A stretch of DNA of 5,990 bases from a virus (lineage: Duplodnaviria; Heunggongvirae; Uroviricota; Caudoviricetes): the IMG/VR virus record IMGVR_UViG_2778261571_000008; one strand, 5' to 3'. The first letter of the stretch is position 1. Each line of letters starts with the position of its first letter. The position numbers were made by a program, and so were the translations under genes. Under the pieces are notes generated by a model that was given only the letters and a program-made list of their open reading frames with translations, had not been told where the DNA came from and did not search any database. Positions 1 to 5,990 of this stretch are shown here, piece after piece.

Positions 1-16
1 TTTTTGTGAAGTCGTC
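1..16. repeat. Left copy of 16-bp terminal direct repeat TTTTTGTGAAGTCGTC
   Basis: Exact 16/16 identity with positions 5975-5990, read directly from the sequence. Chance identity at both exact termini is negligible. Confidence 0.9.
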
Positions 17-322
17 TAATTCATCGCCGAAATATTCTCGATAATCTGGAACGCGCTGTTCTGAAATTGCGTTTGTGGCGATGTCTGGTTTATCGGCTTG
101 TAGTTTATCGACGTTTGCCAGATATACGCCCAGCGACCCAGCTGACCCCATTACCGCCAGCATTCTGCTACGTTCTGCGGCATTGGGAGCGATTGAGGCC
201 AATTGCGCTTTAATTTTGCTTACCTCTTCATCAATGACCCTCTGAATAAGCGGGCCGTTTGCCTGAAGAACTTCCTTAGTAATTTCCTGTGCCAACTGGC
301 GAATATATTCTTTGCGTGTCAT
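1..322 (-). CDS. Hypothetical acidic protein (orfA), N-terminal segment; runs off the window start with no stop
   Basis: ATG at 322-320 with a GGAG-like SD about 10 nt upstream. Open for 107 codons (MTRKEYIRQLAQEITKEVLQ...YREYFGDELDDFTK) to position 2. Absent from the ORF track because it has no stop in the window. Frame-continuous with the ORF entering at 5990 (see 5868-5990). No family recognised. Confidence 0.55.
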   Translation of the reverse strand, partial: MTRKEYIRQLAQEITKEVLQANGPLIQRVIDEEVSKIKAQLASIAPNAAERSRMLAVMGSAGSLGVYLANVDKLQADKPDIATNAISEQRVPDYREYFGDELDDFTK

Positions 323-343
323 TTCTTGTTATCTCCGTTCATC

Positions 344-655
344 TTATTTCTGAAGAAAACTCATACCGTGCCCGATCTTGTTCGCAACCTTTCCGGCAAG
401 CATCCGCCTAATATGGGTTTCATTTAATACGTCGTGAGTCACACTATCTTCGCCTGCCATACATTCCGGCATCTGGCTGAATAACGCGGCGGCGGATTCG
501 TCGAGAATTTCACTGAGTAAATCAGGCAGCATGTCAACGATACGATCTGCCTCGGCGCTCATTGCTTTATCAAAAGAGCGTTTATCTAATGTTTCCTGTG
601 AAGGCTTGTAATTATTACCAACCCGATTAAGGTAACTATTATTTGGGTAGTACAT
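344..655 (-). CDS. Hypothetical small acidic protein (103 aa)
   Basis: ORF-track ORF; ATG at 655-653 preceded by GAGGAAA SD with about 9-nt spacing. Stop TAA at 346-344 lies 21 nt before the orfA ATG, same strand, so operon context. No recognisable motif. Confidence 0.55.
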   Translation of the reverse strand: MYYPNNSYLNRVGNNYKPSQETLDKRSFDKAMSAEADRIVDMLPDLLSEILDESAAALFSQMPECMAGEDSVTHDVLNETHIRRMLAGKVANKIGHGMSFLQK

Positions 656-681
656 GATAAATTTCCTCGATTAATTAGTTT

Positions 682-1200
682 CTATAAAATGGCGTTGCTA
701 CATGAAAAATATGATCTTGCTGCGTATAATCGCCGTGGTTTTTCACCAGAACACGGCATCAACATCCAGCGCGGTTTGTGTTTAGTTAGCGCCTTGCGCG
801 GCTGCTGATGCGGCTTGCGCGGGCTGGCGGCGTTCTCTGCTACTGATACGATCTCAAGATTTGAAAGGCGGTTATCAGTGCCGTTGCCATTTTTATGATT
901 TACGCAAAAACCGGGTTTAATCGCATCAAAACCGCAAGTCAGCCAGATCACAATATTATGCGCTCTGAATAGTTTCTTTTTGCCGTTAACTGTTACGACA
1001 ACCCTGTAATAACGGTGCTTGTTACGGCATTTATATTTACGACCATCACGCTTAATTTTGTATTTCTTTTCAGACGGCTTAAGGCATAGCTCATGACCGT
1101 CACGATCTAAACCTGTTTGCGATCTGCTGTTTACTGTAAAGCGCCGTTTAATTTCTTCCTGATACTCAGGCGGCGGTATTAGTGGCGTTGGCATTGACAT
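682..1200 (-). CDS. HNH endonuclease (HNH_3-type motif)
   Basis: Translation contains RAHNIVIWLTCGFDAIKPGFCVNHKNGNGTDNRLSNLEIVS, the classic H...N...HxNGNxxDNRxxNL HNH signature; the His of VNH is encoded at 897-895. Preferred start is ATG at 1200-1198 (SD GAGTGAGGT, 5-nt spacer) rather than the track's GTG at 1212, which lies inside the SD. Stop TAG at 684-682. Confidence 0.8.
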   Translation of the reverse strand: MSMPTPLIPPPEYQEEIKRRFTVNSRSQTGLDRDGHELCLKPSEKKYKIKRDGRKYKCRNKHRYYRVVVTVNGKKKLFRAHNIVIWLTCGFDAIKPGFCVNHKNGNGTDNRLSNLEIVSVAENAASPRKPHQQPRKALTKHKPRWMLMPCSGEKPRRLYAARSYFSCSNAIL

Positions 1201-1215
1201 GTTTAACCTCACTCA

Positions 1216-1404
1216 TTAACGTTTACGTCCGCGATAGAAATATTCCAGGACTTCACTACGAATAAAGCGGAGCGGCGTTCCTTCAGGGCTAACAGGAATT
1301 GGAAAGCCGGGGATTTTATCTACCCACCTGAGAATCGTGCGCTTGCTTACACAAAAAAGTCGAGCGACTTGTTCGCAGCTTATCAATTCGGGAAAGTCGT
1401 TCAT
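1216..1404 (-). CDS. AlpA-family / excisionase-like HTH DNA-binding protein (about 62 aa)
   Basis: Translation MNDFPELISCEQVARLFCVSKRTILRWVDKIPGFPIPVSPEGTPLRFIRSEVLEYF fits the AlpA/Xis-type HTH pattern (helix, TIyrw, FP-P, then W/E-rich tail). Strong SD AAAGAGGTGA 6 nt before ATG at 1404-1402; the track's start at 1413 is GTG and overlaps the SD. Stop TAA at 1218-1216 is 15 nt before the HNH start. Confidence 0.75.
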   Translation of the reverse strand: MNDFPELISCEQVARLFCVSKRTILRWVDKIPGFPIPVSPEGTPLRFIRSEVLEYFYRGRKR

Positions 1405-2310
1405 TTTCATCACCTCTTTAAAAAAGAGCGGTGGCTGAAAAATATGGAGGAAACAACCACCGCCGTGAACGAAAATAGGCTATATCGGAGAAGTTGATAT
1501 AAATATTTTAATCCCCGCGTCGTACGTGTGCAAACACGGCTTCATTGTCGAATATGGCGTTTTTGTGTAATTAGCAGATCTGGTTTTGATACCCGTCATC
1601 GATATTCAGTCAACTAAAAGGCTGGTTTTGGCCTAAGTGTTGAATGGCACTTTTGGAACGCGTCCGATTTCCACGGTTAATCAGCCACCACGATCCAGAC
1701 GGTAGAATGCGGCTTTCAGCCTGCTGAAATGTGTAACATTCCTGCGCTTTAACAAGATCGGGCTATCTGGTACAGATGGCGGCGGCGATCTGTATTTGGT
1801 GGCGGACTAATCTGCGCAGAATCCCGCTGATTTCTTGATGGCAATAAAGCTAACCATAGCGATTCTAAGCGCCTCATCTTTGCCGGTATGCAAACGGTCA
1901 GCCATGTCACATTGAGCGCGTCAGAGGCGCTACTGTGAAGCGGTGCTATAGCTGCGGCGTATCATTGCCAGCGTCATCGTCGTCACGGGAAAAGCTGTAC
2001 ATGCGGGGATCGAGATAGTCGATACAGAAAACCCCGTCATACAGGAAAGCGAGTGCCGTAGCGCAAGCGAAGGCACCAGGCATGTAGCTACGCGCTGAAT
2101 GCGAGTCACAACAGCTTAACAAAAGCACATACATCGCGATAACGCGGTAACACATCCGGCACCACATGCGTAACTGTGTGTTACCCCAGACGTGGCGCGG
2201 CTCTCAGGCTGATTTTGTCTTTTCCGGTCCCACATCTCGGGTACTTTCCAAAACTTTCTACTTTATAAAAATGGAGTAGAAAACAGAGTGAAATCTTTTT
2301 TTTCTGATTT

Positions 2311-2330
2311 ATCTGGTACCATCTGGTACC
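2311..2330. repeat. Perfect tandem 10-bp direct repeat ATCTGGTACC x2 (forward iterons)
   Basis: Read directly: atctggtacc atctggtacc. Each unit contains a GGTACC hexamer. Confidence 0.85.
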
Positions 2331-2366
2331 CATAGAATATATGTAACTACATCAATAACTTAAGTT

Positions 2367-2400
2367 GGTACCACATCCGGTCCCACATCGGTCCCACATC
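2367..2400. repeat. Three tandem inverted-orientation iterons (GGTACCACATC-C-GGTCCCACATC-GGTCCCACATC)
   Basis: Read directly; 11-12-bp periodicity, about one helical turn. The reverse complement GATGTGG(T/G)ACC matches the forward iteron ATCTGGTACC at 8-9 of 10 positions. Confidence 0.85.
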
Positions 2401-2423
2401 CTGCATCTGGTACCATTTTGACC

Positions 2424-2451
2424 AAAAAAAAGCCAACCCCGAAGGATTGGC
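2424..2451 (-). terminator. Rho-independent terminator downstream of the replication gene
   Basis: On the minus strand: hairpin GCCAATCC-TTCG-GGGTTGGC (8-bp stem, one mismatch, tetraloop) at 2451-2432, followed by eight T (plus-strand A-run 2424-2431). It lies 23 nt after the stop codon at 2477-2475. Confidence 0.75.
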
Positions 2452-2474
2452 GTGTTAAAAGTTAAACAATCTGT

Positions 2475-4064
2475 TTACTTGCTCGTAACCTCAGTCATCA
2501 CGTCACTTGCGCTTGCCATTTTGGCTACTTTCGCACGGTCACGCGCTGCCCTTAGTTCGTCGGCAACCTCAAACGGTTTTGCCTGTAGCCAGCGAACGTG
2601 ATTGCGGATAATCCATCCTCGCACTGGTTTTCCGTCAACCTTAACTTGTGGCGCGGCTACCATTCCCGCATCCTCAAACATACGGCGCTGTTTGTTCGTG
2701 ATCTGCGCGTCCACGTCTTCCAGAATGTACTCAGACAGATCTCTGTTGCTGATAATGTCAGAAGGCCAGTCAGCGATCAGTTCATCAAGATATACGCGTT
2801 CCAGCGGTTTGGCTGAGTTAATTGCCCGTAACTTATCCTCATCACACACAGGCGGCTGTTTAATATCGAACCCGCTCAGGTCACGCGTTGCCAGTTGCCA
2901 TCCTAACGCGTTAATCGCTTTGGGATCGCTTATCAGGTCATCAATGCGCTTCGCCATCTCCCTTGCCGCTTCCTTGCCGTATACATCCGCGTATTTGCCT
3001 GAGGTGTGACGGATGACAAACCAGCGGCGATCATGTTCGTCTATTGGCAGTGGGTTGTCATGGTTAGAACACACAAACCAGCGGCACGCGTTCCATTCTT
3101 CATACTTCGCGCCATATTTCACATTAACGCTGCGTACTGGCTCCGTTATCATCGCTTTAAGGCGATTAGCTGTACGGTATTGGCTGTTATCACCTTCCCG
3201 CACTTCGTCGCATGTTGCCAGAACCGCGCCAGCCAGTTCGCTGTTGAACTGCCCTTCAAGTAGCGCATGGATATTAACGCCAGATGCGCAGTTACGTCCT
3301 AACAGGTGTTTTAGGATGTCGCAGAAAGTTGTTCGACCAACGCCCTGAGTTCCGTTTGTGTAATGAAGAATGCCCCAGTGCGGTAGTACCTCAGGGTGCT
3401 GGATCATGTGCGCAATCCAGTTCACTACCGTTACCCACTTGTCACCGAAAAGCCAACGGCAATCATCATAGAATGCGCTGACGTCCGTTTCATTGTCTGG
3501 AAGCCAGATACGCTTTTTCCACAGGTTGAGGCATTTACGACCGCGCGGATCTTCGCAAATTACCGGGCGACCAGGTGCGCAGGTCAGGGCGTCAACAATC
3601 ATGCGCTTATCGCTCTCACGCCAGAGGCTAGTTGTCGGGACGGCCTTCATTTTCAACCCAGCACCCGCGCCGCCGCCAACGTCGATCATCGTTTTACTGG
3701 CGGCATTCATGTTTTTAAACTCTGACCATTTGAAATTACGGTAAGGCTCATCAAGATAAGCAACGCGTTCGCCGTCAGCCACCCAGACACATTTGGTCAG
3801 CATTTCATCCAACGTCATGATCTGCGGCTTCATGGCGTCAACGTCAAGCTGTTGCGGCTCCGTAGCTTTGACTGCGTTTTCCGCAATGCGCTGGCGTTCA
3901 GCTTCGCGCTCTTTGATCTGTTGTTCGGCGATCTCTACGACGCTGGCAAGCTCCTCGTCAGTAGGGCTAATGCGCACACCTGCGCTATTTAGCGGTATTA
4001 CATTTGCGATATTTTTTTCAGCTCTGACCTGGTCATCCGGGCCGTTTTGTGGCATATTAATCAT
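2475..4064 (-). CDS. Replication initiator: SF3 (D5/P4-alpha C-terminal-like) helicase-type protein, 529 aa, with atypical Walker A
   Basis: Motifs in canonical SF3 order and spacing: Walker-A-like HYTNGTQGVGRTTF (R codon at 3335-3333), Walker B AVLATCDEV (DE at 3209-3204), motif C WFVCSNH (N at 3065-3063). SD AAAGAGG 9 nt before ATG at 4064-4062. Followed by terminator and iteron origin. No separate primase domain was recognised by eye. Confidence 0.8.
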   Translation of the reverse strand: MINMPQNGPDDQVRAEKNIANVIPLNSAGVRISPTDEELASVVEIAEQQIKEREAERQRIAENAVKATEPQQLDVDAMKPQIMTLDEMLTKCVWVADGERVAYLDEPYRNFKWSEFKNMNAASKTMIDVGGGAGAGLKMKAVPTTSLWRESDKRMIVDALTCAPGRPVICEDPRGRKCLNLWKKRIWLPDNETDVSAFYDDCRWLFGDKWVTVVNWIAHMIQHPEVLPHWGILHYTNGTQGVGRTTFCDILKHLLGRNCASGVNIHALLEGQFNSELAGAVLATCDEVREGDNSQYRTANRLKAMITEPVRSVNVKYGAKYEEWNACRWFVCSNHDNPLPIDEHDRRWFVIRHTSGKYADVYGKEAAREMAKRIDDLISDPKAINALGWQLATRDLSGFDIKQPPVCDEDKLRAINSAKPLERVYLDELIADWPSDIISNRDLSEYILEDVDAQITNKQRRMFEDAGMVAAPQVKVDGKPVRGWIIRNHVRWLQAKPFEVADELRAARDRAKVAKMASASDVMTEVTSK

Positions 4065-4132
4065 GTTGAGTAGCCTCTTTTCGTTGCCTATTCACAGCCG
4101 TTCGATTCAGCACCGTAAACGGCTCCAACATT

Positions 4133-4161
4133 GCCCCGGTTGCGACGGGGCTTTGTTATTT
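4133..4161 (+). terminator. Terminator-like GC hairpin plus T-rich run, plus-strand orientation, in the leader between the second alpA-like gene and the replication gene
   Basis: GCCCCG-gttgcga-CGGGGC (perfect 6-bp GC stem, 4133-4151) followed on the plus strand by TTTGTTATTT (4152-4161). It overlaps the stop codon of the 4156-4401 gene. On the minus-strand mRNA the same hairpin forms but is not followed by a U-run. Confidence 0.3.
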
Positions 4162-4401
4162 CTGGTCTATGTATCTTCCGCATTGCTGTAAATCCCTCAT
4201 TAGCTCGTCTCTATGGATTTCGTACCACGCAAGCATGTCGGCTTTTAGCCATAACATCATGTTTCCGCGCCCTCGTGTCATAGGTTCCGGGAAATCCGGG
4301 TAACGACGCATTACGTGGTAAACTGAGCGCCGTGAGCGGTTAAGTAGTTCGCTGACATCTCTTACTGTCATGATGAAATCCTTCACCGTTTGGCCTTTCA
4401 T
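4156..4401 (-). CDS. AlpA-family / excisionase-like HTH DNA-binding protein (81 aa, or 71 aa from internal Met)
   Basis: Translation ...MTVRDVSELLNRSRRSVYHVMRRYPDFPEPMTRGRGNMMLWLKADMLAWYE fits the AlpA/Xis HTH pattern. SD AAAGAGGG 7 nt before ATG at 4401-4399; an alternative ATG at 4371-4369 has a GAAGGA SD. Stop TAA at 4158-4156 is 91 nt upstream of the replication gene. Confidence 0.7.
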   Translation of the reverse strand: MKGQTVKDFIMTVRDVSELLNRSRRSVYHVMRRYPDFPEPMTRGRGNMMLWLKADMLAWYEIHRDELMRDLQQCGRYIDQK

Positions 4402-4714
4402 GGTTCTGCCCTCTTTGTTAAAACTACACGATCACTGTAACCCATATTTTTAGCTATTCACAACTTTTCCCCATTTCAGCGACCATAAACGCAAAAACCC
4501 AGCGCTATGGCTGTTCGATGAATTGTTATCAGGATGTTTCCTATCCGACCAGTTAAACCAGCGACAGGTCAACATGTGACTATTGAGTTGCGTAATGATT
4601 TACTGCTGGAAAGGATAAACTCAGCTTCAGTGGCTCAATTTCCCGTTTTGCGTCTGTCAGGGCTATAAAATTCGTCTCAATTCTGTGAGATGCATCACAC
4701 TTTATGCCTGATAT

Positions 4715-4733
4715 TTATACAGTAACTGTATAA
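4715..4733. repeat. 19-bp perfect palindrome TTATACAGT-A-ACTGTATAA overlapping the LexA-like box
   Basis: Read directly. 9-bp arms with a 1-bp centre; chance expectation in 6 kb is about 0.02. It shares the ACTGTATAA arm with the LexA-like site, giving three alternating ATACAG/CTGTAT half-sites across 4717-4741. Confidence 0.8.
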
Positions 4734-4743
4734 CCATACAGGC
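4724..4743. promoter_or_regulatory. LexA-box-like site (SOS box), CTGTAT-N4-ATACAG
   Basis: aaCTGTATaaccATACAGgc: CTGT at 4726-4729 and ACAG at 4738-4741 with an 8-nt spacer; both 6-bp arms CTGTAT/ATACAG are perfect. It matches 14 of 20 positions of the E. coli consensus TACTGTATATATATACAGTA, including the whole invariant core. It is the only CTGT-N8-ACAG in the window. Confidence 0.45.
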
Positions 4744-5094
4744 CGAAAACCCGCTGTTTTACTGCCTATTTACCATAATGGATCTTGTGCGCACCATTTT
4801 CCGGTGATTGATTTCTGACCCTGTTTCGACGATAAAGCCATCCATTTTTCTCTGACTCGTAAAAGCTGGCATGAAATTTGATGTGGCGTGATTTGTTATG
4901 ATTGTGTTACCGCCAGTCTTGCCGCTGACGTCGGCTACGCGCGCGCATGTACATGTCCGAAAATTACCCCCATAAAAGCGCCCCTCATATAGTGCAAAAA
5001 CCCGGATGGCGCGGCTTTCGGCGGTTTTAGCATTGAAAACTAACTTCAAAAACGGCCCGCTATCGTTCGCTAACTACTCGCTAACCTCTCTGGC

Positions 5095-5388
5095 TTACTC
5101 GTCGATGTCAGCGCCACATGCCCTCAACTGGGCGTGTATATCCGCTTTGATTAACTTCAATCGACGGACGAAGCGCTGTTCATCATCGTTGCAGTTGTAC
5201 AGGCTGCCGTTTTCGCCTGTTGCCTTCATCGAAATCAATTTGTTGATCGTGCCTATAACAAGCTCACCAAAGCATCGAAGGGCGGTGCGTTTGGCTGGCA
5301 GTTGGCACGCTGGGCAAGAATGAAGGATATAAGCTGACCTTTCTGCGATCTCGCGGGCCATGCCGGTGATGATTTTTAAGCACAACAT
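5095..5388 (-). CDS. Hypothetical Cys-containing small protein (97 aa)
   Basis: ORF-track ORF with good SD GGAGAG 6 nt before ATG at 5388-5386. Contains HSCPAC (a CxxC pair) plus three further Cys. Preferred over the overlapping plus-strand ORF 5006-5323, which has no SD and a low-complexity translation. Confidence 0.5.
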   Translation of the reverse strand: MLCLKIITGMAREIAERSAYILHSCPACQLPAKRTALRCFGELVIGTINKLISMKATGENGSLYNCNDDEQRFVRRLKLIKADIHAQLRACGADIDE

Positions 5389-5480
5389 GATTTACTCTCC
5401 GGTCGCTGTATAATTAACGTGATTTAAAACATTGTTCCGATGTCACCACTTAACTTGTTGTCAACGATTTCGCATTGTTT

Positions 5481-5506
5481 GCCCGGTAGTGATTGCCGGG
5501 CTTTTT
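5481..5506 (+). terminator. Terminator-like hairpin plus T5, plus-strand orientation, in the intergenic region between orfB and the 97-aa gene
   Basis: GCCCGG-tagtgattg-CCGGGC (6-bp GC stem, 5481-5501) followed by TTTTT (5502-5506). A perfect TATAAT hexamer lies on the plus strand at 5409-5414, about 70 bp upstream. Confidence 0.3.
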
Positions 5507-5517
5507 CTTGCCTGTGA

Positions 5518-5862
5518 TTAGTCGAAGTAGCTGCCAATATCCGGTGTCCGGGTATCAGTTTTCCGGGTAGGCGTGGAGAAGTACGACTCCAGATCCGGCG
5601 TTTTAGGCCCGCGCTGGGCGTTGGCGGCGGGTTGCTTTTCTTCTGGCTGTTCCGGCTGTTTACCAGCGAAACGGCGCTCCAGTTGGTCCATCAGCACCAC
5701 CATCATTTCCTGGACCAGCTTTTCATCGGCTTTGTCCAGGCTTTCCAATACCATCGCCATCCCTTTGCGAAATTTAAGCTCAGCGGCGTCCGGTTCCGGT
5801 GCTGATTCGTTTGCTTTAACTGCCAGGGCGATCCGGCGTTTTGCTTCATCTAAAAAACTCAT
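5518..5862 (-). CDS. Hypothetical small acidic protein (orfB, 114 aa), translationally coupled to orfA
   Basis: ATG at 5862-5860 lies 5 nt after the orfA stop (TAA 5870-5868); its SD GGGGGA (5877-5872) is inside the end of orfA. C-terminal tail ...PDLESYFSTPTRKTDTRTPDIGSYFD carries two SYF motifs. No family recognised. Confidence 0.6.
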   Translation of the reverse strand: MSFLDEAKRRIALAVKANESAPEPDAAELKFRKGMAMVLESLDKADEKLVQEMMVVLMDQLERRFAGKQPEQPEEKQPAANAQRGPKTPDLESYFSTPTRKTDTRTPDIGSYFD

Positions 5863-5867
5863 TTTGT

Positions 5868-5990
5868 TTATTCCCCCATATAGAAATAGTCATCTAATTG
5901 ATCGCGTAGTTCTTTTGGTCCGTTAAACCATTCATCAATGGTCGCATTAAATACCGGATCGCCATCGAAGTAGGTTTTTGTGAAGTCGTC
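5868..5990 (-). CDS. orfA, C-terminal segment (enters window at 5990; stop TAA at 5870-5868)
   Basis: Reverse-complement translation from 5990: DDFTKTYFDGDPVFNATIDEWFNGPKELRDQLDDYFYMGE-stop. The first five codons are encoded by the 16-bp repeat and are in the same frame as the final DDFTK of the 1-322 segment. Joined product is 142 aa. Confidence 0.55.
   Translation of the reverse strand, partial: DDFTKTYFDGDPVFNATIDEWFNGPKELRDQLDDYFYMGE
5975..5990. repeat. Right copy of 16-bp terminal direct repeat TTTTTGTGAAGTCGTC
   Basis: Exact identity with positions 1-16. Confidence 0.9.

What the first reader, a model, noticed from the sequence alone, without database searches (positions are those of the whole stretch)
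4715..4743. LexA-box-like site fused to a 19-bp perfect palindrome in the large leader upstream of the alpA-rep operon
Seen directly: CTGTAT-aacc-ATACAG at 4726-4741 satisfies CTGT-N8-ACAG with perfect 6-bp arms, and TTATACAGT-A-ACTGTATAA at 4715-4733 overlaps it, giving three alternating half-sites. Established knowledge: CTGT-N8-ACAG is the LexA operator in E. coli and relatives, and prophages and satellites often place induction genes under LexA. Inference: the element may be SOS-inducible without encoding its own repressor. The site is about 325 bp upstream of the alpA-like ATG at 4401 and I found no strong sigma-70 promoter next to it, so the regulated transcript is unclear.
Basis: partly seen in the sequence, partly recalled or inferred. 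Interest (0 to 1): 0.6.

Follow-up and report, generated by a model that had tools for sequence, protein, structure and literature searches.

The report
LexA box beside a plasmid Xer site
The reported sequence is a genuine-looking SOS (LexA) operator, but it belongs to a small portable block of host-protein binding sites built around a plasmid dimer-resolution (XerC/XerD) site and a CRP site on a 6-kb circular satellite-like plasmid, so it is an optional extra control and not the master switch of the replication genes.

Summary
CTGTATAACCATACAG (4726-4741) is the only CTGT-N8-ACAG in the window. It scores like real E. coli SOS boxes and above all 300 shuffles. The 19-bp palindrome (4715-4733) is the back-to-back junction of this box with one extra LexA half-site. 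A second box cannot form, because its outer half-site is one base out of register.

The "large leader" is a psi-type Xer dimer-resolution site. Its XerC-GATCCA-XerD core lies at 4768-4795, with an ArcA-like box at 4894-4909 on the XerC side. The LexA box and a perfect CRP core (4684-4699) lie on the XerD side.

The window is a complete 5,974-bp circle without a recombinase gene. LexA and CRP sites occur only in relatives that carry the Xer core. Nine relatives with a serine resolvase in that slot have none of the three sites, although one of them has an identical HTH gene. Across lineages the CRP and Xer cores are constrained. The LexA core varies at the background rate and is broken in two lineages.

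No convincing promoter was found, so the regulated transcript is unresolved. LexA probably binds here and exerts an accessory, dispensable SOS control.

The parts
4726..4741 (.). Canonical LexA (SOS) box CTGTATAACCATACAG; the 20-mer spans 4724-4743
   Evidence: It is the only CTGT-N8-ACAG in the window. PWM 18.1 bits, heterology index about 8.4, above all 300 shuffles. Intact in the window/L015/L017, L016/L035/L036 (CTGTATAAATATACAG, 22.6 bits) and C41 lineages; broken in L020/21 and L031-34.
4717..4722 (.). Orphan LexA half-site ATACAG, 3 bp from the box. Together with the box it forms the junction ...ACAG-TAA-CTGT...
   Evidence: Read directly. The same junction is found in tandem LexA operators of other proteobacteria, e.g. 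upstream of lexA-like and recN-like genes.
4715..4733 (.). 19-bp perfect palindrome TTATACAGT-A-ACTGTATAA, a by-product of the two back-to-back half-sites
   Evidence: The full 19-bp form occurs only in the window lineage (shared by L015 and L017). The relatives keep only the inner part, 4720-4733 CAGTAAC(T/C)GTATAA.
4707..4722 (.). Out-of-register pseudo-box CCTGATATTTATACAG (CTG-N9-CAG instead of CTG-N10-CAG)
   Evidence: Read directly. As a 20-mer (4705-4724) it scores 11.7 bits and a heterology index of about 12. The one-base-short spacing is shared by all lineages.
4684..4699 (.). Perfect CRP core TGTGA-GATGCA-TCACA; its centre is 42 bp from the centre of the LexA box
   Evidence: One match, 0 of 200 shuffles. 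Across the aligned variants the core is 0/10 variable columns while its N6 spacer is 5/6 variable, with four different spacers.
4768..4795 (-). Xer recombination core GGTGCGCACAA-GATCCA-TTATGGTAAAT (XerC arm, 6-bp central region, XerD arm)
   Evidence: One match to a cer/psi/dif pattern, 0 of 200 shuffles. The central region is identical to pSC101 psi and the XerD arm is identical to ColE1 cer (table in PMC2410131). An unbiased blastn of 4700-4800 against plasmids matched 45 records; the 30 listed hits all align to the Xer-core part of the query except one Bacillus hit (H37), and they include psi itself.
4796..4965 (-). Putative accessory sequences on the XerC side
   Evidence: 4796-4887 is shared with C41 at about 95% identity. 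Published accessory sequences are about 200 bp long and lie next to the XerC arm (PMC11724359).
4894..4909 (+). ArcA-like direct repeat TGTTA-TGATTG-TGTTA, 98 bp from the XerC arm
   Evidence: It is the only TGTT[AG]-N6-TGTTA in the window. The only match in pSC101 lies in the psi accessory region, about 80 bp from the core, on the same strand relative to the core. It lies in a segment of about 58 bp that C41 lacks.
4624..4887 (.). 264-bp block shared at 95.5% with an integrated island in E. coli C41 (eut/intZ locus)
   Evidence: also in metagenome contigs L020/L021.
4699..4726 (-). Candidate weak gene-direction promoter: -35 GTTACT (4726 to 4721), 16-bp spacer, -10 TAAAGT (4704 to 4699), start near 4692
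   Evidence: PWM 5.5, below the median best score of shuffles (9.0), so it is not statistically supported. The hexamers are kept in all lineages (the -10 is GAAAAT in L031). Inference only.
4694..4734 (+). Candidate weak promoters pointing to the Xer core: ATCACA-18-TACAGT (4694/4718) or CTGATA-15-TATAAC (4708/4729)
   Evidence: PWM 6.0 and 6.1. TACAGT loses its A at -11 in L031, and TATAAC/TATAAA never has T at -7. Inference only.
4402..4500 (-). Proximal leader of the HTH gene, shared with relatives that lack the block; candidate promoter TTGTGA-18-TACAGT (4463/4439)
   Evidence: Alignment with L014/L019; PWM 6.7.
4156..4401 (-). 81-aa HTH protein (the 'alpA-like' gene)
   Evidence: Weak HTH_17/HTH_23 hits, no Phage_AlpA hit; PHROG excisionase/regulator families.
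2475..4064 (-). 529-aa DUF5906 primase-helicase-like replication protein
   Evidence: Homologues at 74-91% identity lie on contigs of 5.6-11 kb, many of them circular.

Best explanation
The feature is one canonical E. coli-type LexA box (4726-4741) plus an orphan LexA half-site (4717-4722). The 19-bp palindrome is only their back-to-back junction and is not a separate operator.

The box is one component of a block of about 340 bp made entirely of host-protein sites. In gene direction the order is: ArcA-like box, accessory sequences, a psi-type XerC/XerD core, the LexA box, then a CRP site. The block serves a 5,974-bp circular plasmid-like satellite that has no recombinase of its own.

Proposed mechanism. 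In undamaged E. coli, LexA binds the box and occludes a weak promoter that overlaps the junction. My preferred promoter points in the gene direction, with -35 GTTACT abutting the box, -10 TAAAGT, and a start inside the CRP site. DNA damage would then add transcription running into the HTH-rep operon (or into the tape-measure-like gene in C41). This would come on top of a proximal promoter that all family members share.

The control is accessory and dispensable. It has been lost twice, and it is absent from relatives that use a serine resolvase instead of the Xer site.

What is shown: the sites, their quality, their linkage to the Xer core and their conservation pattern. What is inferred: LexA binding (about 0.75) and the direction and promoter (about 0.35).
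For: Box quality and rarity. The junction is typical of tandem SOS operators. Xer core verified against cer and psi, and by unbiased blastn. ArcA-like repeat placed as in psi. Circularity and independent recovery of the element. A deposited plasmid relative exists. LexA and CRP sites are present only where the Xer core is present (the window/L015/L017, L016/L035/36, L031-34, C41 and L020/21 lineages) and absent from 9 resolvase-type relatives. The resolvase gene occupies the same slot. The intact box is ancestral, and a spacer change in L016 brings it closer to consensus (22.6 bits). The hexamers of the gene-direction candidate promoter are kept in all lineages. A LexA-to-ATG distance of this order is known for an SOS gene (tisB, 236 bp, in PMC8072944). 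There is precedent for LexA control of a satellite operon (SaPI operon I, cited in PMC6092414). The larger relatives carry Xre-type HTH genes upstream of HTH-rep that the small Xer-type elements lack.
Against: No promoter near the box scores above shuffled sequence. The preferred promoter would place CRP on its own start site, which is an unusual logic. The LexA core columns vary at the block's background rate (2/8 against about 27%), so purifying selection is not detectable, unlike for the CRP core (0/10) and the Xer core. The box is broken in two successful lineages. The HTH-rep operon functions in many relatives without any LexA box. The strict co-inheritance with the Xer core could instead mean that the box serves the Xer site or a transcript crossing it. 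My LexA matrix is built from remembered sequences, so the scores are approximate.
Confidence: 0.45

Rival explanations
1. The LexA box gates a promoter on the + strand. This promoter would point away from the HTH-rep genes, run straight through the XerD-XerC core 27 bp away and on into the accessory sequences. SOS induction would then drive transcription across the recombination site or make an antisense RNA, and would not induce the replication genes.
For: The most conserved stretch of the region is CAGTAAC(T/C)GTATAA (4720-4733). It combines a LexA half-site with a TATAA -10-like motif, as in many SOS promoters (that comparison is from memory). With -10 TACAGT or TATAAC, the box would cover -10 to +10, the commonest LexA position. 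In the two lineages with a broken box, the TACAGT hexamer is also damaged (CACAGT, TCCAGT), which fits joint decay. LexA and CRP sites are strictly co-inherited with the Xer core. Published work argues that transcription entering a Xer site from the XerCD side would displace XerCD (PMC2831885).
Against: There is no ORF and no structured RNA downstream on the + strand (z about 0), and no terminator. TATAAC/TATAAA never has T at -7. The spacers are 15 or 18 bp. The CRP centre would sit at -38.5 or -49.5, neither of which is an activating position. Promoter scores are below shuffles. Sampled cer/psi-type sites in other plasmids have nothing comparable.
Confidence: 0.2
2. The box is a decaying relic. 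LexA may bind it, but this has no present regulatory consequence. The block acquired the site from an earlier context and it now drifts neutrally.
For: Core columns vary at the background rate (2/8). There have been two independent losses at critical bases. No promoter is detectable. The family does well without the box.
Against: A 12/12 match of both 6-bp arms is very unlikely by chance (about 4e-4 per 6 kb; shuffles). Three lineages keep the box intact, and one improved it through spacer changes. With only 8 columns, the test for constraint has little power.
Confidence: 0.2
3. The palindrome is the operator of a protein encoded by the element or by a helper phage, such as the 81-aa HTH protein or a phage repressor. 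Under this reading the resemblance to LexA boxes is incidental.
For: The arms are perfect over 9 bp, and two HTH proteins are encoded on the element.
Against: The full palindrome exists only in the window lineage, and its outer arms vary in the relatives. L014 carries an identical 81-aa HTH but has no such site. C41 carries the site but has no close homologue of that HTH or of the Rep protein. The 14-mer is not repeated elsewhere in the window. The palindrome decomposes exactly into LexA half-sites.
Confidence: 0.07

Closest known systems
E. coli SOS boxes of the sulA / recA type (CTGT-N8-ACAG LexA operators)
   Same: Both 6-bp arms, CTGTAT and ATACAG, are perfect. The score lies within the range of validated boxes.
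   Different: No recognisable core promoter overlaps the box. The nearest start codon is 325 bp away. The box sits 27 bp from a XerD-binding arm.
Tandem LexA operators (lexA, recN, colicin genes; marine proteobacterial examples L003, L004, L010, L013)
   Same: The junction ...ATACAG-TAA-CTGTAT... is identical.
   Different: The outer half-site of the would-be second box is one base out of register in every lineage (CTG-N9-CAG), so only one box is canonical.
Colicin E1 (cea) promoter, co-regulated by LexA and cAMP-CRP on a 6.6-kb plasmid that also carries a Xer site (cer)
   Same: A small plasmid, a LexA operator plus a CRP site, and a Xer site on the same replicon.
   Different: ColE1 has a clear TTGACA-17-TAGCTT promoter followed by two overlapping boxes. 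Its CRP-like site lies about 69 bp upstream of the first box, and cer is about 1.1 kb away. Here the CRP-to-LexA distance is 42 bp, there is no strong promoter and no colicin gene, and the Xer core is adjacent.
pSC101 psi and ColE1 cer (Xer multimer-resolution sites with ArcA/ArgR + PepA accessory sequences)
   Same: The core is 11 + 6 + 11 bp with the psi central region GATCCA and the cer XerD arm. An ArcA-like repeat lies on the XerC side in the same orientation. The host replicon is small and has no recombinase.
   Different: The LexA and CRP sites flank the XerD side. The six cer/psi-type sites examined have neither within -260 to +200 bp. The ArcA-like repeat lies about 18 bp further from the core than in psi.
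SaPI operon I (LexA-repressed packaging operon of staphylococcal satellites; Ubeda 2007, cited in PMC6092414)
   Same: A phage-satellite-like element wired directly to the host LexA.
   Different: It uses the Gram-positive LexA motif, the element is integrated, and the operon has a defined promoter. Here the target is unknown.
Gram-negative PICIs such as EcCICFT073 (int-alpA-rep)
   Same: A small HTH gene followed by a primase/helicase-type rep gene and a downstream iteron origin; HNH and TerS genes in the family.
   Different: There is no integrase, and the element is a free circle. The HTH protein does not hit Pfam Phage_AlpA. EcCICFT073 alpA is induced by the helper phage, not by SOS.

Membership tests
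Gammaproteobacterial LexA operator (SOS box) | Palindrome CTGT-N8-ACAG with an AT-rich spacer | tested here: met
   CTGTATAACCATACAG at 4726-4741, the only such site in the window.
Gammaproteobacterial LexA operator (SOS box) | Score or heterology index within the range of experimentally bound E. coli boxes | tested here: met
   18.1 bits and a heterology index of about 8.4, against 13.6-26.6 bits for 25 remembered boxes; above all 300 shuffles. The matrix is approximate because it was built from memory.
Gammaproteobacterial LexA operator (SOS box) | Overlaps or abuts a promoter (about -50 to +20) | tested here: inconclusive
   No sigma-70 promoter scores above shuffles. There are only weak candidates on both strands.
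Gammaproteobacterial LexA operator (SOS box) | Core bases conserved among relatives more than the flanks | tested here: inconclusive
   Intact in 3 of 5 lineages. Core columns are 2/8 variable against a background of about 27%. Low power.
Gammaproteobacterial LexA operator (SOS box) | LexA binding and DNA-damage induction | not testable with these tools
   Needs EMSA or footprinting, and expression assays in lexA(Ind-) and lexA(Def) hosts.
Tandem (double) LexA operator | A second complete box at canonical CTG-N10-CAG spacing | tested here: not met
   4707-4722 is CTG-N9-CAG in all lineages.
Operator of the element's own HTH protein | The site co-occurs with the protein across relatives | tested here: not met
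   The identical HTH gene in L014 occurs without the site. C41 has the site without that HTH gene.
psi/cer-type plasmid Xer site | 11-bp XerC arm, 6-8 bp central region, 11-bp XerD arm | tested here: met
   GGTGCGCACAA-GATCCA-TTATGGTAAAT. The XerC arm is 10/11 to psi, the central region is identical to psi, and the XerD arm is identical to cer. The blastn hits fall on plasmid Xer cores.
psi/cer-type plasmid Xer site | About 200 bp of accessory sequence on the XerC side, with an ArcA or ArgR site at a defined distance | tested here: inconclusive
   An ArcA-like repeat lies 98 bp from the arm, against about 80 bp in psi, in the same orientation. It is absent from the C41 variant. PepA sites have no recognisable motif.
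psi/cer-type plasmid Xer site | Carried by a small circular replicon that lacks its own resolvase | tested here: met
   A 5,974-bp circle with no recombinase ORF. Relatives without the site carry a serine resolvase in the same slot.
psi/cer-type plasmid Xer site | XerCD-dependent dimer resolution | not testable with these tools
   Needs a two-site reporter or dimer-resolution assay in xerC, xerD, pepA and arcA mutants.
CRP binding site | TGTGA-N6-TCACA, with the core conserved and the spacer free to vary | tested here: met
   Perfect core, 0 of 200 shuffles. 0/10 core columns variable against 5/6 spacer columns.
CRP binding site | Centred near -41.5 or -61.5 of a promoter | tested here: inconclusive
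   The only compatible geometry is -61.5 relative to an invariant but poor -10, GAAATT (4642 to 4637), in the gene direction (worked out by hand; conservation).
Colicin-type SOS + CRP promoter | A strong -35/-10 followed by two overlapping LexA boxes and a colicin operon | tested here: not met
   Comparison with ColE1. There is no such promoter and no colicin gene.
PICI (phage-inducible chromosomal island, EcCICFT073 type) | An integrase and att sites, with chromosomal integration | tested here: not met
   No integrase. The element is a closed circle recovered independently. A relative is deposited as a plasmid.
PICI (phage-inducible chromosomal island, EcCICFT073 type) | An AlpA regulator (Pfam PF05930) | tested here: not met
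   Only sub-threshold HTH_17/HTH_23 hits.

The most novel reading that the evidence does not exclude
The LexA and CRP sites may be regulatory parts of the Xer site itself. Bound LexA and CRP on the XerD flank, or LexA-gated transcription across the core, would couple dimer resolution to the SOS and cAMP state. On DNA damage, when a helper prophage is induced, a plasmid-like phage satellite would stop resolving multimers. It would then accumulate the concatemers that a terminase needs for packaging. This would be a new class of accessory control for Xer recombination, alongside ArgR, ArcA and PepA.
Probability: 0.1. Interest if true: 0.8.

Novelty: new variant of a known kind. Interest (0 to 1): 0.45.

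Why it matters
LexA boxes on mobile elements are well known, from colicins, integron integrases, CTX phage and SaPI operon I. On its own, therefore, the box is ordinary.

What is unusual is its setting. It is a psi-type Xer dimer-resolution site whose XerD flank carries a LexA box and a strongly constrained CRP site. The replicon is a family of 5.6-10 kb circular E. coli plasmids with the gene content of a phage satellite (HTH, primase-helicase, HNH, small terminase). These plasmids have no integrase, and they swap the Xer block for a serine resolvase.

If LexA or CRP really act on this block, it would link plasmid multimer control or satellite replication directly to host stress and carbon signals. 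The finding also corrects the annotation of the 'large leader' and shows that the SOS link is optional in this family.

Tried and rejected
- Rfam scan of the whole window: nothing relevant; one sub-threshold chance hit.
- Sigma-70 and terminator consensus scans and my own PWM scan: no promoter above shuffles and no convincing terminator.
- RNA folding of 4738-4900 on both strands: z about 0, so no structured sRNA.
- Small ORFs. A 28-aa ORF at 4759-4845 on the - strand loses its stop codon in L016. A 10-12-aa mini-ORF inside the CRP site has no ribosome-binding site. + strand ORFs of 9 aa or fewer were also seen. All rejected as coding features.
- Phage database, viral contigs and the E. coli complete-genome collection for the element: no phage match, no viral contig, and only C41 shares the block.
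- Second LexA-like site at 2174-2189 (CTGTGTGTTACCCCAG): 7.2 bits, at the level of shuffles; rejected.
- ARG box in the accessory region (CATGAAATTTGATG 4870-4883): poor match by eye; not pursued.
- Class II CRP geometry on either strand: no acceptable -10 at the required distance.
- Literature search for LexA or CRP acting at plasmid Xer sites: nothing found.
- A heterology-index matrix from the literature was not available as text, so the matrix was rebuilt from remembered sites.
Full report
OBSERVATION. The window reads ...gatatTTATACAGTAACTGTATAACCATACAGgccg.... The 19-bp palindrome TTATACAGT-A-ACTGTATAA occupies 4715-4733. CTGTAT-AACC-ATACAG occupies 4726-4741. The three alternating half-sites are ATACAG 4717-4722, CTGTAT 4726-4731 and ATACAG 4736-4741.

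CTGT-N8-ACAG occurs once in the window, with 0.07 expected. The palindrome occurs once, with 0 of 200 shuffles matching. I built a position weight matrix from 25 E. coli LexA boxes that I recalled from the literature, so it is approximate. With it, the 20-mer at 4724-4743 scores 18.1 bits and a heterology index of about 8.4. That is within the range of the training sites and above the best site of all 300 shuffled windows.

A second box using the left half-site (4707-4722) has CTG-N9-CAG spacing, one base short, in every lineage. The site is one competent box plus an orphan half-site.

WHAT THE PALINDROME IS. I scanned species-representative genomes for ATACAGTAACTGTAT-N6-ACAG and found 12 hits, 11 of them in Gamma- or Betaproteobacteria. 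In several of these a complete first box precedes the junction: CTGT-N8-ACAG-TAA-CTGT-N8-ACAG. Some sit directly upstream of lexA-like (MIKLTDRQQ) and recN-like (MLTLLSIRNF) genes. The palindrome is therefore the ordinary back-to-back junction of LexA half-sites and not a separate operator. Among relatives, the window lineage (shared by L015 and L017) is the only one with the full 19 bp. What is conserved is the inner CAGTAAC(T/C)GTATAA, 4720-4733.

WHAT THE ELEMENT IS. All plausible genes lie on the - strand:
- an 81-aa HTH protein (4156-4401; sub-threshold HTH_17, no Phage_AlpA hit);
- a 529-aa DUF5906 primase-helicase-like protein (2475-4064);
- a 65-aa HTH protein;
- an HNH endonuclease;
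- several small ORFs.

The window is an entire contig with a 16-bp terminal overlap. Sister contigs from independent sequencing runs have 30-bp overlaps (k-1) and are circular permutations of it. The window maps at 100% identity, without a break, onto the doubled 5,974-bp circle of L017. There is no integrase or other recombinase gene.

Rep homologues at 74-91% identity lie on contigs of 5.6-11 kb with the same gene order, many of them circular. Many also carry an Sf6-type small terminase. One relative is deposited as a complete 8,873-bp E. coli plasmid, pRHB04-C06_4. Iterons and an AT-rich inverted repeat at about 2140-2430, downstream of rep, look like the origin. This is a family of small plasmids with satellite-like gene content.

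WHAT THE 'LARGE LEADER' IS. On the - strand, 4795 to 4768 reads GGTGCGCACAA-GATCCA-TTATGGTAAAT. I extracted the reference sites from the records themselves:
- ColE1 cer is GGTGCGTACAA-TTAAGGGA-TTATGGTAAAT;
- pSC101 psi is GGTGCGCGCAA-GATCCA-TTATGTTAAAC.

These agree with a published table (PMC2410131). The window's site therefore has a XerC arm 10/11 to psi, the psi central region, and the cer XerD arm. None of 200 shuffles matches a cer/psi/dif pattern.

An unbiased blastn of 4700-4800 against 72,556 plasmids matched 45 records. Apart from one Bacillus hit (H37) on the far end of the query, the 30 listed hits align only to the Xer core, and they include psi itself.

On the XerC side lies the window's only TGTT[AG]-N6-TGTTA repeat (4894-4909), 98 bp from the arm. 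The only such repeat in pSC101 lies in the psi accessory region, about 80 bp from its core and in the same orientation. Published work places about 200 bp of accessory sequence next to the XerC arm, bound by ArgR or ArcA plus PepA. It also shows that small enterobacterial plasmids use either such sites or their own recombinases (PMC11724359). Consistent with this, relatives that lack the site carry a serine resolvase gene in the same slot.

THE LexA BOX IN THAT CONTEXT. In gene direction the order is:
- ArcA-like box;
- accessory region;
- XerC-central-XerD core;
- 26 bp of linker;
- LexA box;
- orphan half-site;
- a perfect CRP core TGTGA-N6-TCACA (4684-4699; 0 of 200 shuffles);
- about 280 bp;
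- the HTH gene.

A 264-bp block (4624-4887) containing the Xer, LexA and CRP sites is 95.5% identical to an intergenic block in an integrated island of E. coli C41 (eut/intZ locus). There it lies 79 bp upstream of a tape-measure-like gene and just downstream of TerS and a 133-aa gene. Two metagenome contigs share that arrangement.

Across all loci examined, LexA-like and CRP sites occur only where the Xer core occurs. The lineages with the Xer core are window/L015/L017, L016/L035/L036, L031-L034, C41 and L020/L021. Nine resolvase-type relatives (L014, L028, L029, L030, L038, L043, L047, L049, L050) have no LexA site of 12 bits or more, no CRP core and no Xer arm.

L014 has an 81-aa HTH protein identical to the window's but lacks the block. 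C41 has the block but no close homologue of that HTH or of the Rep protein. The box is therefore linked to the Xer site, and neither to the HTH-rep operon nor to the element's own HTH protein. Six other cer/psi-type sites have no LexA or CRP site within -260 to +200 bp, so this flank is particular to the family.

CONSERVATION. I aligned six variants representing five lineages and counted variable columns.
- CRP core: 0 of 10 variable, against 5 of 6 in its spacer (four different spacers).
- Xer central region: 0 of 6. Xer arms: 3 of 22.
- LexA core (CTGT/ACAG): 2 of 8, equal to the block's background of about 27%.

The box is intact in three lineages. In L016/L035 spacer changes bring it closer to consensus (22.6 bits). 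It is broken at critical bases in L020/21 (ACAG to ACGG; 9.6 bits) and in L031-34 (CTGT to CTAT). The intact state is evidently ancestral and has been lost twice. CRP and Xer are under clear constraint. For LexA, constraint is not detectable, although eight columns give little power.

WHICH TRANSCRIPT? No sigma-70 promoter in 4402-5094 scores above shuffled sequence. The best local candidates score 5.5-6.1 against a median best-of-shuffle of 9.0. No intrinsic terminator or structured RNA is evident. The candidates are as follows.
- (a) Gene direction: -35 GTTACT (4726 to 4721) abutting the box, 16-bp spacer, -10 TAAAGT (4704 to 4699), start near 4692 inside the CRP site. The hexamers are kept in all lineages.
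- (b) + strand: ATCACA-18-TACAGT or CTGATA-15-TATAAC, with the box over the start site, reading through the Xer core. TACAGT is damaged in exactly the two lineages that have lost the box.
- (c) Gene direction: an invariant GAAATT (4642 to 4637) placed so that CRP is at -61.5 and the start falls at the end of the shared block. This could be the CRP-dependent outward promoter, but it would put LexA at about -103.

A proximal promoter-like TTGTGA-18-TACAGT (4463/4439) lies in the roughly 100 bp shared with relatives that lack the block. I prefer (a), because protein-coding genes lie only in that direction and its hexamers are the best conserved. This is inference with modest confidence.

COMPARISON WITH KNOWN SYSTEMS.
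- As a sequence, the box is a normal member of the E. coli SOS-box class.
- As a double operator it fails, because the second box has the wrong spacing.
- It is unlike the colicin E1 SOS+CRP promoter. That has a strong core promoter, two overlapping boxes, a CRP site about 69 bp upstream and cer about 1.1 kb away.
- Direct LexA control of a satellite operon has a precedent in SaPI operon I. In the model Gram-negative PICI EcCICFT073, however, alpA is induced by the helper phage and not by SOS (PMC6092414).
- The element is not a PICI by definition. It has no integrase, it is a free circle, and it has no Pfam AlpA domain.
- I found no paper that links LexA or CRP to plasmid Xer sites.

VERDICT. 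The box is very probably a real LexA target, about 0.75. It is an optional component of a portable psi-type Xer + CRP block on a circular satellite-like plasmid, and not the conserved switch of the replication operon. Its regulated transcript is unresolved.

My estimates for the readings are:
- gene-direction promoter, about 0.35;
- transcription across the Xer core, about 0.2;
- relic, about 0.2;
- foreign operator, about 0.07;
- direct role in Xer control, about 0.1.

The last is the most novel reading that the evidence does not exclude.

Noticed in passing
window 1-5990 (ends 1-16 = 5975-5990): The window is a complete 5,974-bp circular element. It is 100% identical to an independently assembled circle (L017) and has no integrase or resolvase gene. 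It belongs to a family of 5.6-10.6 kb E. coli plasmids with satellite-like content (HTH, DUF5906 rep, HTH, HNH, and TerS in the relatives). One member is deposited as plasmid pRHB04-C06_4 (CP058022.1). I found no description of this family as phage-satellite plasmids.
   Followed up: partly
window 4768-4795 (- strand), 4796-4965, 4894-4909: A psi-type XerC/XerD core (central region GATCCA as in pSC101 psi, XerD arm as in ColE1 cer), with an ArcA-like TGTTA-N6-TGTTA repeat on the XerC side. The 'large leader' is mostly a dimer-resolution site.
   Followed up: yes
window 4684-4699: A perfect CRP core TGTGA-N6-TCACA, invariant in five lineages with four different spacers. It is the most strongly constrained motif of the region, yet it is not at a standard class I or II distance from any good -10.
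   Followed up: partly
L014 4391-5017; L028, L029, L030, L038, L043, L047, L049, L050: Relatives carry a serine resolvase gene in the slot where the window has the Xer block. This is a functional swap between a host-dependent and a self-encoded way of resolving dimers.
   Followed up: yes
window 2140-2430: Origin-like region downstream of rep: TCCGGTCCCACATC x3, CATCTGGTACC x3, and an AT-rich inverted repeat (2298-2321 / 2408-2431).
   Followed up: no
L001 (E. coli C41, eut/intZ island) 8001-8264; L020, L021, L022: Integrated islands in the eut operon (intZ, CPZ-55-like) share TerS, a 109/133-aa gene, the HTH65 homologue and, in C41/L020/L021, the Xer-LexA-CRP block. In those three it lies just upstream of a 726-aa tape-measure-like gene. 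L022 has the same proximal sequence but no block. A Xer site inside an integrase-bearing island is unexplained.
   Followed up: partly
window 4888-4945: A segment of about 58 bp is present in the plasmid lineages but absent from C41/L020. It carries the ArcA-like repeat and sits inside what in C41 is a hairpin followed by a T-run (AGCTGGC...GCCAGCTTTTT), a likely terminator of the upstream operon.
   Followed up: no
window 4951-4965 and 5095-5388: The window lacks the TerS and 109-aa genes that precede the block in L015/L016. A remnant (TAATTTTCGGACATG) marks the deletion point next to the 97-aa gene.
   Followed up: no
window 2174-2189: A second, weak LexA-like site CTGTGTGTTACCCCAG in the rep-downstream intergenic region. 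It is conserved in close relatives but scores only 7.2 bits, which is chance level.
   Followed up: yes
L028 2081-2725, L038 5530-6171, L025 1647-2081: The larger relatives have an extra gene of about 144-214 aa, with a weak Xre-type HTH, just upstream of the HTH-rep pair. This may be the element's own regulator, and it is missing from the minimal Xer-type plasmids.
   Followed up: no
L003, L004, L007, L010, L012, L013: Marine Gamma- and Betaproteobacterial genomes hold tandem LexA operators with a 19-bp period (box-TAA-box), e.g. upstream of lexA-like and recN-like genes.
   Followed up: no
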